DNA from: Candidatus Micrarchaeota archaeon
GTDB taxonomy: Archaea > Micrarchaeota > Micrarchaeia > Burarchaeales > JACRGF01
Direction of reading: 5' to 3'
DNA: 64,000 nt
Assembly: GCA_016212395.1 (NCBI GenBank)
Contig: JACRGF010000048.1
Coordinates: 10,759-74,758, forward strand
Under the pieces are notes generated by a model. The model was not told where the DNA came from, did not search any database, and was given only the letters and a program-made list of their open reading frames with translations. This document shows, in pieces, positions 14,701 to 58,729 of this stretch; position 1 is the stretch's first letter, and each line of letters opens with the position of its first letter. Position numbers and translations under genes: made by a program.

Positions 14701-14877
14701 GTCGTAAAACAAGAATTCGCGAGCGAACTCGAGCCGAGCAAAGACGCGATCGCAAAAGAAGTAAAAGCAAAAGAACTGGCAATATCAACAAAGCAAGAAA
14801 TGAAATTAAAGAAAGGCTTGAAGAAAAAATGGGAAATCGAGGAAGAAGAAGTGACGATAATAGTCGAAAAAGCTTGA
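11797..14877 (+). CDS. ileS: isoleucyl-tRNA synthetase
   Basis: PPYVTGTIHPGTAWNK (HIGH-like), KMSKSMGN, CP1 editing region; ATG 11797. Confidence 0.95.
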   Translation: MYEFKEVEEGVKKFWKSKKIYAKAVEKNVKGKKFYFCDGPPYVTGTIHPGTAWNKCVKDAVCRFKRARGFKVRDQAGFDTHGLPIEVKVEQELKLKSKKEIEEKIGVTEFIEKCKHFATQYIGVMSEQFKSLGVWMDFENPYITYKDDYIERSWATVKAAHEKELLSRGVYVLPHCPRCETTMANYELEYDDKDDPSIYVKFKVKGKENEYLVVWTTTPWTLAANMAVMAHPTFVYVKVKVDGEQWIVAKERLDALMAVTHELGLSPVVVDECTGMKLKGLEYEQPLGEKIPFHEGKKHEVVLSDQFVTLEEGTGLVHCAPGHGPQDFIVGRQYGIEAFCPVGINGKYTEAAGEYAGMFVKDADKRIIKYLQEKGALIHSGTIRHRYAHCWRCKTPLVHVATDQWFIAVTKLKEKMREEIDKSTWQPEFARTWFKDFVSTAPDWCISRQRYWGIPLPIWICENKECGKIKVVGSKKELGKKIKELHKPFIDEVEFECEKCKSKMKRTPDVLDVWFDSGNAIWASLSEEEMKEWYPCDFIVEGKDQIRGWFYSLLGSGVVYNNEIPYKSLLMHGHFVDEKGEKMSKSMGNFVPLEEIIEKHGIDAFRLWSLSAVTWEDVKFLWDEIQEAQRVLSIYWNLCVFLQRFSKGEPEKKNIEYELEDQWLLSRLNSLVKKCTESLDAYAVHEAARVCREFIVEDLSRFYLKLGKKRLNEEKNAEAVQSVLYQAMLTLAKLTTPIVPFISEEVYQSFYKKFEKEESISLAHWPEAEHMRADPLLEKNMAIAQSISSAAANARNNVNIKLRWPLEEIVVVTNSSEVVSAVERLAYIIEGLANVKRTTIKQSMKAELEIKPLPSKIGPVFKNNAGKVKEELEKLNALEAKKTVEEKGEVEVKINGASIAVKKEFFEIKEKPVEGYSAAQFEHGTVYVKTEISKELYREALAREVARRIQIMRKEMQLVEKDSVEVNIVVKQEFASELEPSKDAIAKEVKAKELAISTKQEMKLKKGLKKKWEIEEEEVTIIVEKA

Positions 14878-14933
14878 AGCAGAAAAAAAGCAAAACAAGA
14901 CGAAACTGCTCGAAACAACTAATAGGGTATTTG

Positions 14934-16328
14934 ATGACGAAAAAAATTCTTGCAATTACAGCGTTACTGCTCGTTTTTTCTCTCACTGCAATGGCTGCAG
15001 AACAGTCGCCTAAAACGTACGCGAGCAGCGAATTGGGAATGCAAATAAACTGGATAGTGGGCATTAAGGGAAACACGCAGCAGTACAGCATTGACTTTGC
15101 AAGCTTCGTGCCGGCGAATTATTCAAAGCAGGAAATAATCCAGTCATCTGCAACAAGAAAATTTTCATTAAACAAGGACAACGAAATGGCTGAATTCAGC
15201 TTCAGGACAGACAAGAGCGAAACAATAGTTTACAGCGCGAACGTGAAAATAGACTTTACTGAAACTTTCTCGCAGCCACTCGCGTTCCCAGTAGAAACAA
15301 CTCCTGAAACAGAAGCATACTTGAAAGAATCCCCGCTCGTGCAAATCACTCCTGAGATAAAAACAGAAGCAACAAGGCTCGTGGGAAGCACGAGCGACGG
15401 GTTGGAAGCAAGCGCAAAACTCACTGAATGGGTTTACAACAACATTCAATACGACTTGGCGTACGGAAACGCGAACTATTCATCTGAATGGGTGTACGAA
15501 AACAGGAAGGGAACGTGCGACGAGTTCGCGCACCTGCTCATTGCAATGGCGCGATCGCAAGGAATTCCCGCGCGCTACGTTTCAGGCTACGTGCTCGGAG
15601 TGTCGCCAAGCCCGGAGTACGGGGAAGTTGGAACGATAAAATGGGTTCCGCACGGGTGGGCTGAATTATACTTCCCGGAACAAGGCTGGATCCAGGCAGA
15701 CCCCACGTACAACGAACTCCTCCAGCTCGACGCGAGCCACTTGAAAATGGCTGACGCGCTCGACCAAAGCACGATGCGCGAAAAAGTGGAAGGAAAAGGA
15801 GAACAGGGAGTGTCGCTCTCGCTTGAAAAAAAATACGAGATAAGAATGAAAAACTACAAGCAATTCCAGCCGCTCGCAGTAGAAATAGAATTCCCTGAAG
15901 AACAAGTGGAAAACGTGCAAAAAATTATGGTAACACTCCGCAACCCATCAAGCCAAATAGTAGTAGCGCCAGTAGAGATAGTGCTGCCAGGCGGGCTTCA
16001 AACAAAAAGCTTGAAAAACACGCTCGTGCACTTGAAGCCGAACGAAGAAAAACAAATAGCGCTCGACGCTGAAATAACGTTCGAAATGCAGAACAACACG
16101 AAATACACGTTCCCAATCCAAGTGCAAACGTTCGGCAAGCCGTTCGACGCCAGCTTTGAAAAAGTCAAGCTGTCAGAAGAACAAGCGACATTCAACATGA
16201 CGCAAATAAACGTGCAGAAAGTATCAGACTTGATAACAGAAATCCCATTAGATTTTAAAGTTTTAATCGCAATAGTACTAGTGGCAACACTCGCACTCGT
16301 AGTACTCGCAGTACTAAAAGCCAGATGA
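14934..16328 (+). CDS. transglutaminase-like cysteine protease domain protein, N- and C-terminally anchored
   Basis: GTCDEFAHLLIAMARSQGIPARYVSGY ... HGWAELYF ... ADPT (Cys-His-Asp); signal/TM at both ends. Confidence 0.75.
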   Translation: MTKKILAITALLLVFSLTAMAAEQSPKTYASSELGMQINWIVGIKGNTQQYSIDFASFVPANYSKQEIIQSSATRKFSLNKDNEMAEFSFRTDKSETIVYSANVKIDFTETFSQPLAFPVETTPETEAYLKESPLVQITPEIKTEATRLVGSTSDGLEASAKLTEWVYNNIQYDLAYGNANYSSEWVYENRKGTCDEFAHLLIAMARSQGIPARYVSGYVLGVSPSPEYGEVGTIKWVPHGWAELYFPEQGWIQADPTYNELLQLDASHLKMADALDQSTMREKVEGKGEQGVSLSLEKKYEIRMKNYKQFQPLAVEIEFPEEQVENVQKIMVTLRNPSSQIVVAPVEIVLPGGLQTKSLKNTLVHLKPNEEKQIALDAEITFEMQNNTKYTFPIQVQTFGKPFDASFEKVKLSEEQATFNMTQINVQKVSDLITEIPLDFKVLIAIVLVATLALVVLAVLKAR

Positions 16329-16362: not shown

Positions 16363-16508
16363 GTCGACACAGTCGACTGCGGTCGACTTGTCGACATTTC
16401 GACTGCAGTCGAAATCGTCGAATACTCGAGCGACAAAACCGTCGGAGCGGTTTTGTGCTCCACAAGAGCGATGCATCGCTCTTGTCGGACAAGTCAGCGT
16501 AGACTTGT
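16363..16508 (+). repeat. cluster of six short perfect hairpins (GTCGAC type and ACAA...TTGT type)
   Basis: GTCGAC-ACA-GTCGAC; ATTTCGACTGCAGTCGAAAT; ACAAAACCG/CGGTTTTGT; ACAAGAGCGATGCATCGCTCTTGT; ACAAGTC/GACTTGT. Confidence 0.7.
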
Positions 16509-16524
16509 CGATGCTAAAATTAAT

Positions 16525-16640
16525 GCGGCTGTAGTCTAGCCTGGTAGGACTCGAGGTTGCCAATCTCGTAACCCGGGTTCAAACACCCGTCGCTGAAGCA
16601 ACGCGCTTTCAGCAACGTGCTGAAAATCCCGGCGGCCGCA
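16525..16640 (+). tRNA. tRNA-Gly(GCC) with ~43-nt intron in the T-loop (exons 16525-16583 and 16627-16640)
   Basis: Hand-folded cloverleaf: acceptor GCGGCUG/CGGCCGC, anticodon loop UUGCCAA, T-stem CCGGG/CCCGG split after UUCAAA; no encoded CCA. Confidence 0.85.
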
Positions 16641-16668
16641 TAACTTCGTGGTTTTCAGTCTTCTGTCT

Positions 16669-16728
16669 CCAACAAGTCAGACGCATCTGACTTGTGGACC
16701 ACAAGTTCGTAACGACGAACTTGTCGGT
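16669..16728 (+). repeat. two tandem CCA(A)CAA...TTGTGG hairpins
   Basis: CCAACAAGTCAGA-CGCA-TCTGACTTGTGG and ACCACAAGTTCGT-AACG-ACGAACTTGTCGGT. Confidence 0.7.
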
Positions 16729-16785: not shown

Positions 16786-16869
16786 TCCCGGCGACCGCAA
16801 TTTTTTTAACGCGGTTGTAGTCTAGCCTGGTAGGACTTTGGCCTTCCAAGCCAATGACCCGGGTTCAAA
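16786..16869 (+). tRNA. tRNA-Gly(UCC), 3'-piece-first gene (circularly permuted or split): nt 60-73 at 16786-16799, 11-nt linker, nt 1-59 at 16811-16869
   Basis: The 5' piece folds to position 59 (anticodon loop CUUCCAA) and then diverges. The upstream UCCCGGCGACCGCA completes the T-stem and acceptor stem, including U5-A68. Confidence 0.75.
16801..16807 (+). terminator. T7 tract immediately after the 3' piece of tRNA-Gly(UCC)
   Basis: GCGACCGCA-A-TTTTTTT; oligo-T is the archaeal termination signal. Confidence 0.4.
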
Positions 16870-16998
16870 TGACCTTTTTTCTTTCTTTTTCTCTCTGAAA
16901 AAGAAAGAAAAAACCTCAACAACCAACAAAAGCGATGTGTCGCTTTTGCGGTCCACAAATTCGATTCGTCGAATTTGTTGGAAAAAAGAAAGAAAAAA
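16870..16998 (+). repeat. structured intron-like module flanking the 5' piece of tRNA-Gly(UCC)
   Basis: Y-run/R-run hairpin (16875-16913), then two ACAA hairpins, then a polypurine run. Same architecture as intron 18535-18676. Confidence 0.65.
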
Positions 16999-17008
16999 GC
17001 AAAAAAAT

Positions 17009-18208
17009 TTACAGCGTTAAGAAAAAGCCTGTTGCGAACACGTCGCCTAGTCCTACTGTCTGCCGGGGGTTGCCGAGAGTAAAGCTTGGAGTGAATGCTT
17101 TCATGCAATCGAGCTTCTGCTTGTCGAAATCTTGTTCTTTTTCAGCAGAACGCTCGCACGGCTCGCCTGGGGAAAAAGTCCTCAAGTCGCTGAATGAAGC
17201 GAAGCGCGCGTTCGCTGCCTTGAAGCACGCGAGAAGCGAAGCGAAAAACAACGCGTTCTTCAAATCCACTTCGCGCTTGTCTTTGCTCAACGCGAAAGAA
17301 TAATCACTCGAGTGAACTACGATAGTACGCACTTTGTTCAACAGCAGGCGCGCGTCCGAAAACTCGTTGCGAGGCATTCCGTCCAATGCTTTCAAGCACT
17401 GCTTCAACTCCAGTTCGTTCAAGCCCAAGCAATCGCACAACGGCGCGAAAACTTCAAGCACTCTCTTCAAAACACTCAAGTCCTGGAAATCGCCGAGCTC
17501 CAAGTGAACGCGCAAACGAGAGTTTGCCTTCTTCCACCCGGAAACTATTTTCGCCACTTCGTCAACGCGCTTGAAAAACTTCGGGGACAGCAAATGAAAA
17601 CCGCCAATAATCGCCTTGTCTATTTCCCCAATGCAAGCTGAAGCGTGCTTCAAGAAAACATCGTCAACACGCAGCTCAAACGCGCCGGAATCGAAAGAAG
17701 CAATAAAACGATTGGAAACAGGGACAGTCTTTCCTCGGACTAACGCGCCTTTTGAATACTCTAAAATAAAGTGAGTAGCACTCTCGCCCAAGGGAGCCAG
17801 CCTGCGCGCAGACGCAAACCCGTTCTCTCCTGCAAGCAAAAGCTTGTCGTCCAACACGCTCAACTGAGTCTTGCCCTTGTCCGCAACATGCAGGAAACTC
17901 TCAACGCCAAGCCTGCAAGCAGCACTCGCGGAAATGCCAGCCTGCCCGCCAACCTGCAGAGAATCAAAGCCAACGCGAGAACGAAGAAAATCAAGGGAAG
18001 ACTCTGAAACTGCAACCTCGCGCTCAACACCCTTCACCATGCACTCCTCCAAGCAAGACAACTCGCCGGGCAAACCGCGAAAATCAATGCCTCGAGCATC
18101 AATCGTCCTCACAGCATCAACATTAGTGTTAAAAGCAAACAACGCCCTCCTCGCAACACGCGCGCTCGCCCAATCAACCAAATCAACCAAACGACAACAC
18201 CCCTGCAA
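17009..18208 (-). CDS. ADP-dependent sugar kinase family protein (glucokinase/phosphofructokinase-like)
   Basis: FAFNTNVDAV, GGQAGISA and C-terminal TVGLGDVFATGF motifs. Start is uncertain: no in-frame ATG upstream of the conserved N-terminal motif FAFNTNVDAV, TTG about 18208. The upstream part of the 444-aa ORF is probably not coding. Confidence 0.65.
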   Translation of the reverse strand: MQGCCRLVDLVDWASARVARRALFAFNTNVDAVRTIDARGIDFRGLPGELSCLEECMVKGVEREVAVSESSLDFLRSRVGFDSLQVGGQAGISASAACRLGVESFLHVADKGKTQLSVLDDKLLLAGENGFASARRLAPLGESATHFILEYSKGALVRGKTVPVSNRFIASFDSGAFELRVDDVFLKHASACIGEIDKAIIGGFHLLSPKFFKRVDEVAKIVSGWKKANSRLRVHLELGDFQDLSVLKRVLEVFAPLCDCLGLNELELKQCLKALDGMPRNEFSDARLLLNKVRTIVVHSSDYSFALSKDKREVDLKNALFFASLLACFKAANARFASFSDLRTFSPGEPCERSAEKEQDFDKQKLDCMKAFTPSFTLGNPRQTVGLGDVFATGFFLTL

Positions 18209-18294
18209 AACAACAACAGAAACAAAACAATTCAAAACCAAAAAATAAAAACCCCTTAAACAAGACCACCACGAACAAAACCGCAGAAACAAAA

Positions 18295-18336
18295 CCCCAA
18301 AACTCAAAACTCCAAAACTCCTAAACTTCCAAACCC
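18295..18336 (-). repeat. tandem 8-nt GTTTTGRA-type array
   Basis: CCCCAAAACTCAAAACTCCAAAACTCCTAAACTTCCAAACCC. Confidence 0.7.
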
Positions 18337-18430
18337 ACTGCAATTATTACATTCTCAAACAACAAACAATACGAACAATAAAGAATATAAAAATGAGAAA
18401 CACAAAAATAAAAACAGAAACAACTGAAAA

Positions 18431-18720
18431 TCCCGGCGACCGCATGATTTTTTTGTGGTTCTCGGTTTTGAGTCAACAGTTTTGGAAACCCCAAAACTGA
18501 AAACTCGAAACTCGACACTGCGGTTGTAGTCTAGTAACCTTTCTTTTTTCTTTTTCGAGTAGAAAAAGAAAAAAGAAACGTTAACGACCAACAAAAGCGA
18601 CGCATCGCTTTTGTGGTCCACAAAAACGTCACGACGTTTTTGTTGGAAAGAAAAAAGAAAAAGAAAGGTTGGACATCTTGGTAGGACATGGGCTTCCCAA
18701 GCCTATAACCCGGGTTCAAA
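18431..18720 (+). tRNA. tRNA-Gly(CCC), 3'-piece-first gene with an extra D-loop intron: nt 60-73 at 18431-18444; nt 1-15 at 18520-18534; intron 18535-18676; nt 16-59 at 18677-18720
   Basis: Pieces sum to 59+14 nt; anticodon loop UUCCCAA; acceptor GCGGUUG/CGACCGC; the D-loop intron forms a BHB (GUCU/GGAC helix flanked by AG|U and AU|C bulges). Confidence 0.75.
18448..18454 (+). terminator. T7 tract immediately after the 3' piece of tRNA-Gly(CCC)
   Basis: GCGACCGCA-TGA-TTTTTTT. Confidence 0.4.
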
Positions 18721-58608: not shown

Positions 58609-58729
58609 GGGGCCGTGTGCTAGCTTGGTATGCTTCCAGCTTGGGGTGCTGGCGACTCGAGTTCAAAAGAGCCCGGTCTTCAAAGCTTGGAATGGAAGGC
58701 TGGCGGCGCTGAATTTCTCGACGGCCCCA
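58609..58729 (+). tRNA. tRNA-Pro(GGG) with ~48-nt T-loop intron (about 58668-58715)
   Basis: Acceptor GGGGCCG/CGGCCCC, anticodon loop UUGGGGU, T-stem UCGAG/CUCGA; D-stem weak (U.U, G-C, C-G, U.U). Confidence 0.75.

What the first reader, a model, noticed from the sequence alone, without database searches (positions are those of the whole stretch)
16525..16640. tRNA-Gly(GCC) with a non-canonical T-loop intron
A clean cloverleaf is obtained only if about 43 nt (CACCCGUCGCUGAAGCAACGCGCUUUCAGCAACGUGCUGAAAA) are removed between UUCAAA and UCCCGG, at or near position 59/60. T-loop UUCA can pair with intronic UGAA, leaving a 3-nt bulge (AA|U) against the T-stem. That gives a helix-bulge-helix half of a BHB motif at the 3' splice site. 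Non-canonical intron positions are known mainly from Thermoproteales and some DPANN. They need a broad-specificity splicing endonuclease.
Basis: partly seen in the sequence, partly recalled or inferred. Interest (0 to 1): 0.6.

Follow-up and report, generated by a model that had tools for sequence, protein, structure and literature searches.

The report
Glycine tRNA gene with T-loop intron
This is a real glycine tRNA gene of a tiny uncultured archaeon (Micrarchaeota), interrupted in its T-loop by a 43-base intron of the ordinary archaeal cut-and-rejoin type; this kind of intron is already documented in this phylum, so it is a solid but unsurprising find.

Summary
Confirmed. Window 16525-16640 (+) encodes tRNA-Gly(GCC) as exon 1 (nt 1-59, 16525-16583), a 43-nt intron (16584-16626) and exon 2 (nt 60-73, 16627-16640).

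- **Product:** removing the intron gives a clean 73-nt cloverleaf.
- **Orthologs:** eleven related genomes carry this gene uninterrupted, with the same T-loop and 3' end as the predicted product. Ten carry inserts of 38-119 nt at the same site. Two species of one genus differ only by the insert.
- **Structure:** the unconstrained fold is T-stem, a 4-bp helix (T-loop UUCA with intron UGAA) and a 3-nt bulge AA|U at the 3' splice site. The 5' site sits in a loosened loop. This is a relaxed bulge-helix-bulge motif.
- **Paralogs:** nine tRNA genes of this genome share the geometry, with compensatory changes.
- **Enzymes:** the genome encodes an epsilon2 splicing endonuclease (E 2e-138 to ARMAN-2 EndA, key residues kept), RtcB and a CCA-adding enzyme.
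- **Precedent:** ARMAN-2 pre-tRNA-Cys has a 59/60 intron that this enzyme type cleaves in vitro, so this is a new member of a known kind.
- **Extra:** the intron belongs to a ~40-nt family at 59/60 in several different tRNAs, which suggests mobility.

No RNA data could be obtained.

The parts
16525..16583 (+). Exon 1 of tRNA-Gly(GCC), nt 1-59: acceptor 5' strand GCGGCUG, D-arm, anticodon arm (anticodon GCC at 16559-16561), T-stem 5' strand CCGGG (16573-16577), T-loop nt 54-59 UUCAAA (16578-16583)
   Evidence: It is 92-98% identical to exon 1 of orthologs in relatives.
16584..16626 (+). 43-nt intron at 59/60. It contains CAC (16584-16586) pairing with GUG (16617-16619). It has an inner hairpin GCUGAAGC (16592-16599) / GCUUUCAGC (16605-16613). 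UGAA (16621-16624) pairs with T-loop UUCA, and AA (16625-16626) lies in the 3' bulge.
   Evidence: Folds. Homologous introns. Precisely absent from 11 orthologs.
16627..16640 (+). Exon 2, nt 60-73: U60, T-stem 3' strand CCCGG (16628-16632), acceptor 3' strand CGGCCGC (16633-16639), discriminator A73 (16640). No CCA is encoded.
   Evidence: The same 14 nt, or with one compensatory change, follow the T-loop directly in intron-less orthologs.
16573..16632 (+). Relaxed bulge-helix-bulge motif: T-stem (5 bp), central helix 54-57 with intron -6..-3 (4 bp), 3-nt bulge A,A|U60 (3' splice site), A58 A59| opposite C16620 (5' splice site), then outer helix CAC/GUG
   Evidence: The unconstrained MFE equals the constrained fold. 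z = -3.25. Across 9 paralogous genes the central helix is 100% paired, with A:U to G:C double changes.
16786..16869 (+). Context, not part of the gene: the neighbouring tRNA-Gly(UCC), whose 3' piece (16786-16799) lies 11 nt upstream of its 5' piece (16811-16869). It is broken at the same 59/60 site.
   Evidence: The same order GCC then permuted UCC occurs in same-family genomes G001 and G002.
18431..18720 (+). Context: tRNA-Gly(CCC). Its 3' piece (18431-18444) is upstream, its 5' piece is 18520-18534, a long D-loop insert follows, and the body ends with GGGUUCAAA at 18720.
   Evidence: read by eye and from the repeat families D3, D6, D7.

Best explanation
Window 16525-16640 is the only tRNA-Gly(GCC) gene of a Micrarchaeota genome. 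It is transcribed as a 116-nt body carrying a 43-nt intron between T-loop nucleotides 59 and 60.

Proposed mechanism:

1. In the precursor, the T-stem stacks on a 4-bp helix made by T-loop U54-A57 and the intron's UGAA.
2. This exposes A,A|U60 as a 3-nt bulge (3' splice site). A58,A59| sits in a small internal loop closed by a short CAC/GUG helix (5' splice site).
3. The geometry copies a canonical 37/38 intron, with the T-arm playing the part of the anticodon arm.
4. The homodimeric epsilon2 splicing endonuclease cuts both sites. RtcB joins the exons and may circularise the intron. RNase P, a 3' nuclease and the CCA-adding enzyme finish the tRNA.

Shown here: the sequence anatomy, the fold, conservation and covariation of the motif, exact empty-site alleles in relatives, and the presence of the enzymes.

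Inferred: that cutting and joining occur in vivo at these phosphates.
For: - **Product:** the spliced product is a regular cloverleaf. Its exon 2 and T-loop are identical to uninterrupted orthologs that score 61-65 bits with Rfam tRNA.
- **Empty sites:** eleven relatives have the gene without any insert at 59/60, and ten have inserts of 38-119 nt at that exact site. G001 (none) and G002 (38 nt) belong to one genus.
- **Fold:** the free MFE fold gives the motif, z = -3.25.
- **Homologous introns:** in six other Gly genes they fold into a strict 3-4-3 motif.
- **Paralogs:** in nine 59/60-intron genes of this genome, the T-stem and central helix are 100% paired. UUCG:CGAA replaces UUCA:UGAA in His and Arg(GCG). 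Zero of 500 shuffles reach the covariation score, and slid registers drop to 25-52% paired.
- **Only copy:** no other GCC anticodon arm or Gly-type 5' end exists in the 89%-complete assembly.
- **Endonuclease:** a single 392-aa EndA matches ARMAN-2 epsilon2 EndA (4FZ2) over its full length at E 2e-138. The catalytic Tyr, His and Lys and the specificity-loop Lys align (residues from PMC3488258).
- **Other enzymes:** RtcB, a CCA-adding enzyme and an RNase P RNA candidate are present.
- **Precedent:** ARMAN-2 pre-tRNA-Cys with a relaxed 59/60 intron is cleaved in vitro by the epsilon2 enzyme (PMC3239211).
Against: - There is no RNA evidence.
- The 5' splice site is not in a canonical 3-nt bulge. 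The first outer pair is an A.C mismatch, and the MFE structure has only 5% ensemble frequency, with a centroid that lacks the central helix.
- No clear archaeal TATA box lies at about -26. The only A/T-rich box is at -12 to -1.
- The rtcB gene carries a 31-nt stop-containing insert and would itself need splicing.
- The assembly is 89% complete, so a second GCC gene cannot be fully excluded.
Confidence: 0.9

Rival explanations
1. Dead gene: a tRNA-Gly(GCC) gene inactivated by a 43-bp insertion and no longer producing a functional tRNA.
For: Standard finders fail on it. The 5' half of the splicing motif is imperfect.
Against: - It is the only GCC gene found.
- Both exons are intact and pair perfectly.
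- The insert keeps the exact 4-bp helix plus NN|N60 register seen in eight other tRNA genes, with covariation.
- Homologous introns persist across genera while the exons stay conserved.
Confidence: 0.04
2. Split gene joined in trans: the 5' part and the 3' part are separate transcripts, as in Nanoarchaeum or the neighbouring permuted Gly genes, and not one spliced precursor.
For: The two neighbouring Gly genes keep their 3' pieces apart from, and upstream of, their 5' pieces, broken at the same 59/60 site.
Against: Only 43 nt separate the parts, and they lie in the normal order. There is no T-run terminator and no room for a promoter inside. The insert folds on itself as one motif. The other 3' pieces (CGACCGC) would mispair with this acceptor strand at position 5:68.
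Confidence: 0.03
3. Insert retained: the mature tRNA keeps the 43 nt as an enlarged T-loop or extra arm.
For: Nothing positive. It cannot be excluded without RNA data.
Against: It would destroy the conserved T-loop/D-loop fold. Orthologs without the insert show what the functional molecule looks like. The motif and the enzyme for removal are present.
Confidence: 0.02
4. Assembly artefact: the insert is a chimeric join in a metagenome bin.
For: The genome is a 67-contig draft.
Against: Independent assemblies of other species carry homologous inserts at the same nucleotide. Eight more tRNA genes on other contigs show the same architecture.
Confidence: 0.01

Closest known systems
Pre-tRNA-Cys(GCA) of Candidatus Micrarchaeum acidiphilum ARMAN-2, with a 13-nt intron at 59/60 (Fujishima et al. 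2011, PMC3239211)
   Same: Same phylum, same intron position, a relaxed bulge-helix-bulge motif, and the same epsilon2 endonuclease type. That enzyme cleaved the Cys precursor in vitro.
   Different: A different tRNA (Gly GCC), and a longer intron (43 vs 13 nt) with its own hairpin. Here the 5' site keeps a remnant outer helix, whereas the Cys motif is described as hBH (bulge-helix-loop). There are no experimental data for this gene.
Pre-tRNA-Pro(GGG) of ARMAN-2, with introns at 53/54 and 59/60 forming a strict hBHBh' motif (PMC3239211, Figure 1C)
   Same: A T-loop intron at 59/60 in Micrarchaeota.
   Different: The window's gene has a single intron and a relaxed motif. This genome's own Pro(GGG) (window 58609-58729) also has a 59/60 intron.
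Canonical archaeal 37/38 intron with hBHBh' (3-4-3) motif
   Same: The same architecture, shifted to the other 7-nt loop on a 5-bp stem. The stem acts as the exon helix, the first four loop nucleotides pair with the intron's 3' end, and the cuts fall after loop nucleotide 6 and before loop nucleotide 7.
   Different: It is located in the T-arm, not the anticodon arm. The 5' bulge is loosened, so narrow-specificity alpha4/alpha'2 enzymes would be expected to fail (PMC3488258: A. fulgidus EndA barely cuts the T-loop substrate).
Circularly permuted tRNA-iMet and tRNA-Tyr of Thermofilum pendens, joined at 59/60 (Chan, Cozen and Lowe 2011, PMC3218864)
   Same: The same break point, 59/60. The window's two neighbouring Gly genes have that permuted layout.
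   Different: The GCC gene itself is colinear, not permuted.
Transposed non-canonical tRNA introns of Thermoproteales
   Same: Related intron sequences are found in different tRNA genes, implying intron gain by copying.
   Different: A different phylum and endonuclease type. Here the family members I found all sit at one site, 59/60.

Membership tests
Archaeal endonuclease-spliced tRNA intron at a non-canonical position (59/60) | Removing the insert restores a canonical cloverleaf with conserved T-loop | tested here: met
   ARAGORN on the spliced sequence. The T-loop and 3' end are identical to uninterrupted orthologs, which score 61-65 bits with Rfam tRNA.
Archaeal endonuclease-spliced tRNA intron at a non-canonical position (59/60) | [quoted passage not shown] | tested here: met
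   The free MFE fold gives a 5-bp stem, a 4-bp helix and a 3-nt bulge at the 3' site, plus a 2x1 loop and a 3-bp helix at the 5' site. The motif is conserved with covariation in paralogs and in homologous introns.
Archaeal endonuclease-spliced tRNA intron at a non-canonical position (59/60) | Host encodes a broad-specificity splicing endonuclease ((alpha-beta)2 or epsilon2) | tested here: met
   One 392-aa EndA has two tRNA_int_endo matches. It matches ARMAN-2 epsilon2 EndA 4FZ2 over its full length at E 2e-138. Residues aligned to Y236, H251, K282 and the loop Lys K161 are conserved.
Archaeal endonuclease-spliced tRNA intron at a non-canonical position (59/60) | RtcB-type ligase available to join the exons | tested here: met
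   PF01139 hit at 510 bits on C24. Caveat: the reading frame is broken by a 31-nt insert after GGVGY, which itself looks like a mini-intron.
Archaeal endonuclease-spliced tRNA intron at a non-canonical position (59/60) | Intron actually absent from the mature tRNA | not testable with these tools
Strict hBHBh' (3-4-3) intron | Two 3-nt bulges separated by a 4-bp helix and flanked by helices on both sides | tested here: not met
   The 3' bulge and the 4-bp helix are present. At the 5' side the pair intron +2 with -7 is A.C in the window, whereas it is G:C in 6 of 7 homologous introns.
Split or circularly permuted tRNA gene | 3' part encoded elsewhere or upstream of the 5' part | tested here: not met
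   The parts are colinear and 43 nt apart. The neighbouring UCC and CCC genes do meet this feature.
Self-splicing (group I) tRNA intron | Group I ribozyme core, usually in the anticodon loop of bacterial or organellar tRNAs | tested here: not met
   No Rfam family matches in the window at gathering threshold. The insert is 43 nt, far too short for a group I core, and it lies in the T-loop.

The most novel reading that the evidence does not exclude
The 43-nt intron may be a copy of a small mobile tRNA intron family of about 40 nt. The family starts with YGC and has an invariant UYCAGC...GCUGAR core.

- **Targeting logic:** the 3' end (UGAA) pairs with the universally conserved T-loop UUCR, so any tRNA can host it at 59/60.
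- **Hosts:** related copies sit at 59/60 in Gly(GCC/UCC/CCC), Arg(CCU), Arg(UCG) and Arg(GCG). Further hosts have at least two more acceptor-stem types, in nine genomes of one Micrarchaeota order.
- **Recent gain:** the Arg(CCU) copy of this genome (28/44 identical, z 5.3) is absent from six orthologs, and a seventh carries an unrelated 144-nt insert there.
- **Turnover:** the Gly(GCC) site occurs in three states: empty, short-family intron, or unrelated long cassette.

This points to repeated gain, loss and replacement, that is intron transposition in a lineage with an epsilon2 endonuclease. The neighbouring permuted Gly genes could then have arisen from tandem copies of such a 59/60-intron gene.
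Probability: 0.45. Interest if true: 0.55.

Novelty: new member of a known kind. Interest (0 to 1): 0.3.

Why it matters
**Annotation.** ARAGORN and the Rfam tRNA model miss or distort this gene, and they recover only about 15 tRNA signals in the whole genome. A genome like this would wrongly appear to lack tRNA-Gly(GCC) and many other tRNAs unless T-loop introns are modelled.

**Biology.** The gene adds a well-supported case to the co-occurrence of epsilon2 endonucleases with heavily disrupted tRNA genes. The empty, short-intron and long-intron alleles in close relatives offer a natural series for studying how tRNA introns are gained, lost and replaced, and how permuted genes arise.

**Limits.** The gene does not change what is known about the splicing mechanism.

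Tried and rejected
- **ARAGORN's contiguous reading:** its call at 16524-16599 was rejected. It uses intron bases as the T-stem and acceptor 3' strands, has mismatched acceptor pairs (second drawing), and disagrees with all orthologs.
- **Rfam:** at gathering threshold it gives nothing in the window. At E <= 0.01 the window's gene and the two-intron G002 gene are still missed.
- **ARMAN-2 supplement:** the supplementary tRNA table of the ARMAN-2 paper is not held. I could not check whether ARMAN-2 Gly(GCC) itself has a 59/60 intron.
- **Second GCC gene:** a search by anticodon-arm and D-arm signatures found none. A copy with an anticodon-loop intron on a missing contig would escape this search.
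- **Promoter:** no convincing box lies at about -26. The sigma-70 scanner was not used because it does not apply to archaea.
- **Alternative 3' pieces:** I considered that the GCC exon 1 might use the downstream 3' pieces (16786-16799, 18431-18444). I rejected this because A68 would face C5.
- **ARAGORN -i isotype labels:** labels for relatives' genes with a second intron are unreliable (the G002 Gly gene was called Phe). I therefore classed hosts of the intron family by acceptor stems instead.

Full report
**The observation**

On the + strand of the window, 16525-16583 reads GCGGCUG...UUGCCAA...CCGGGUUCAAA. This is a complete tRNA 5' part up to T-loop nucleotide 59, with anticodon GCC at 16559-16561. 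Positions 16627-16640 read UCCCGGCGGCCGCA, which is U60, the T-stem 3' strand, the acceptor 3' strand and A73.

Joined in silico, the two parts give a 73-nt tRNA-Gly(GCC) that ARAGORN draws as a regular cloverleaf. Standard tools do not handle the unspliced DNA:

- ARAGORN forces a distorted gene at 16524-16599.
- The Rfam tRNA model finds nothing at gathering threshold.
- In the whole-genome search the model reaches 28.3 bits, just under its cut-off of 29.

Exon 1 ends in AAA and the intron ends in AAAA. Cuts at 56/57 to 59/60 would therefore all give the same product, and only the structure fixes the site.

**Structure**

The unconstrained minimum-free-energy fold of the T-arm plus intron has these elements:

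- the 5-bp T-stem;
- stacked on it, a 4-bp helix between T-loop U54-A57 and the intron's UGAA (16621-16624);
- a 3-nt bulge A,A|U60 on the 3' strand;
- A58 and A59 opposite one C;
- a 3-bp CAC/GUG helix and an inner hairpin.

The energy is -22.2 kcal/mol against -13.7 +/- 2.6 for shuffles (z = -3.25).

By established knowledge of the archaeal motif, a canonical 37/38 intron has three features. The stem acts as the exon helix. Loop nucleotides 32-35 pair with the intron. The cuts fall after the second nucleotide of each 3-nt bulge. Replacing the anticodon arm by the T-arm (54-57 for 32-35, 58-59 for 36-37, 60 for 38) reproduces this geometry and places the cuts at 59|+1 and -1|60. This mapping is my inference.

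**Comparative evidence for this gene**

A search of 60 related genomes found exon 1 at 83-98% identity, with the similarity typically stopping at nucleotide 59.

| State at 59/60 | Genomes |
|---|---|
| No insert; T-loop runs straight on as GUUCAAAUCCCGGC(G/A)GCCGCA | G003, G007, G008, G011, G019, G024, G026, G027, G028, plus G001 and G016 |
| Insert of 38-119 nt at exactly this point | G002, G012, G015, G018, G021, G023, G025, G039, G053 and the window |

G001 and G002 belong to one genus and differ by presence or absence of a 38-nt insert, with identical flanks. These empty-site alleles are natural equivalents of the predicted spliced product. The uninterrupted orthologs score 61-65 bits with the Rfam tRNA model. 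No other GCC anticodon arm or Gly-type 5' end exists in this 89%-complete assembly.

**Evidence from paralogs**

I scanned the genome for a 5' part ending at nucleotide 59, a matching T-stem plus acceptor 3' part within 600 nt downstream or 1.5 kb upstream, and ARAGORN validation of the joined sequence.

- It found two uninterrupted tRNAs, nine genes with a single 59/60 insert of 43-148 nt (Ala x2, His, Gly, Pro, Arg x3, Thr), and the permuted Gly(UCC).
- The same scan on the reversed genome gave 1 validated hit against 15.

In all nine genes the intron's positions -6 to -3 pair with T-loop 54-57, and exactly two nucleotides precede the junction. On an alignment of these junctions:

- the T-stem and central helix are 100% paired;
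- A57:U is replaced by G57:C in His and Arg(GCG);
- 0 of 500 shuffles reach the covariation score;
- sliding the partner by 1-3 columns drops pairing to 25-52%;
- the first outer pair (intron +2 with -7) is paired in 7 of 9 genes, and Gly(GCC) is one of the two exceptions.

**Enzymes and organism**

- **Endonuclease:** the genome has one splicing endonuclease gene, 392 aa, with two endonuclease-domain matches. It aligns over its full length with the ARMAN-2 epsilon2 EndA structure 4FZ2 (E 2e-138).
- **Key residues:** the residues aligned to the catalytic Y236, H251 and K282 are conserved. So is the residue aligned to K161 of the specificity loop, which confers cleavage of the relaxed T-loop substrate (residue roles from PMC3488258).
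- **Taxon:** full-length relatives at 59-77% identity come almost exclusively from Micrarchaeota/Micrarchaeia assemblies.
- **Other enzymes:** RtcB, a CCA-adding enzyme and a full-length but sub-threshold RNase P RNA candidate are present.
- **Oddity:** the rtcB frame is interrupted by a 31-nt stop-containing insert between GGVGY and DINCGVRL.

**What is known**

- Fujishima et al. 2011 reported that ARMAN-2 tRNA genes are 56% disrupted.
- The same paper showed that pre-tRNA-Cys(GCA) carries a 13-nt intron at 59/60 in a relaxed motif. Pre-tRNA-Pro(GGG) carries introns at 53/54 and 59/60. The epsilon2 enzyme cleaves the Cys precursor in vitro (PMC3239211).
- The permuted tRNAs of Thermofilum pendens are also joined at 59/60 (PMC3218864).

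The window's gene is therefore a new member of a documented kind.

**Something extra: an intron family**

The intron is significantly similar to 59/60 introns in several other genes:

- Gly(GCC) of G002 and G025;
- Gly(UCC) of G016, G018 and G025;
- Gly(CCC) of G013 and G016 (z 3.8-7.6 across these Gly genes);
- tRNA-Arg(CCU) of the same genome (28/44 identical, z 5.3).

It is not similar to the other 59/60 introns of this genome (z 0.9-2.4).

A pattern search in 60 relatives found further members in hosts with other acceptor stems: Arg(UCG), Arg(GCG), and stems GCGGGGG and GCUCCAG. Six of seven aligned members fold into a strict 3-4-3 motif, and the window copy has G to A at intron +2.

Arg(CCU) orthologs in six relatives have no insert, and one has an unrelated 144-nt insert. 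So the short intron in this genome's Arg(CCU) looks like a recent gain.

Both UYCAGC and GCUGAR are invariant and can pair with each other in place of the T-loop. I have no tested explanation for that.

**Surroundings**

The gene lies between a transglutaminase-like ORF (14829-16328, +) and an ADP-dependent kinase-like ORF (17009-18343, -). IleRS lies further upstream. No mobile-element genes are nearby.

It is the first of three Gly genes, and the other two store their 3' piece upstream of the 5' piece. The order GCC followed by permuted UCC is kept in the same-family genomes G001 and G002. Palindromic hairpin modules flank the gene on both sides.

**Verdict**

The mechanism is ordinary archaeal endonuclease/ligase splicing at 59/60 by an epsilon2 enzyme (confidence 0.9; not shown at the RNA level). 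Interest is modest because the kind is known. The intron-family and turnover pattern is the part worth a follow-up.

Noticed in passing
genome contig C41:5142-5260 (+), outside the window; relatives G002, G013, G015, G016, G018, G025, G038: A ~40-nt intron family with an invariant UYCAGC...GCUGAR core sits at 59/60 in different tRNAs: Gly isoacceptors, Arg CCU/UCG/GCG and others. The Arg(CCU) copy is absent from six orthologs. GCUGAA can pair either with the T-loop or with the internal UUCAGC.
   Followed up: partly
genome contig C24:360-1695 (-), outside the window: The rtcB (RNA-splicing ligase) frame is broken by a 31-nt stop-containing insert between GGVGY and DINCGVRL. It looks like a mini-intron in the ligase's own mRNA. 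Earlier notes of this scan report the same in other DPANN genomes.
   Followed up: partly
genome contig C29:52225-56716 (-), outside the window: The archaeal SSU rRNA model (1478 positions) matches end to end over 4.5 kb, so the 16S gene carries about 3 kb of inserts.
   Followed up: no
window 16786-16869 and 18431-18720: tRNA-Gly(UCC) and tRNA-Gly(CCC) have an identical 14-nt 3' piece (UCCCGGCGACCGCA) encoded upstream of the 5' piece. Each 3' piece is preceded by CUGAAAA, like the GCC exon 2. CCC also has a long D-loop insert.
   Followed up: partly
window 16865-16997 and 18530-18662: The trailer after the UCC 5' piece and the D-loop insert of the CCC gene are 78% identical 133-nt cassettes. 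Both have complementary polypyrimidine/polypurine ends and an inner double hairpin (CCAACAA...UUGUGG/CCACAA...UUGUUGG). Similar hairpins flank the GCC gene at 16440-16520 and 16669-16727.
   Followed up: partly
genome contigs C29 (upstream of tRNA-Ala UGC, about 6220 on the - strand) and C41 (upstream of 5142): A long hairpin lies directly upstream of two tRNA genes. Its 5' arm copies the tRNA's own 5' end (GGGCCCGUAGCUCA...). Its function is unknown.
   Followed up: no
downstream of most tRNA genes, e.g. window 16641-16665 and 18290-18325 (complement): T-rich repeats with 8-nt periodicity (AGUUUUSR)n lie just after tRNA 3' ends and in many intergenic regions. They are possibly terminator arrays.
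   Followed up: no
window 16509-16524: The only A/T-rich box upstream of the GCC gene (CUAAAAUUAAU) lies at -12 to -1, too close for a standard archaeal TATA box at about -26. Several other tRNA genes of this genome show a similar near box.
   Followed up: no
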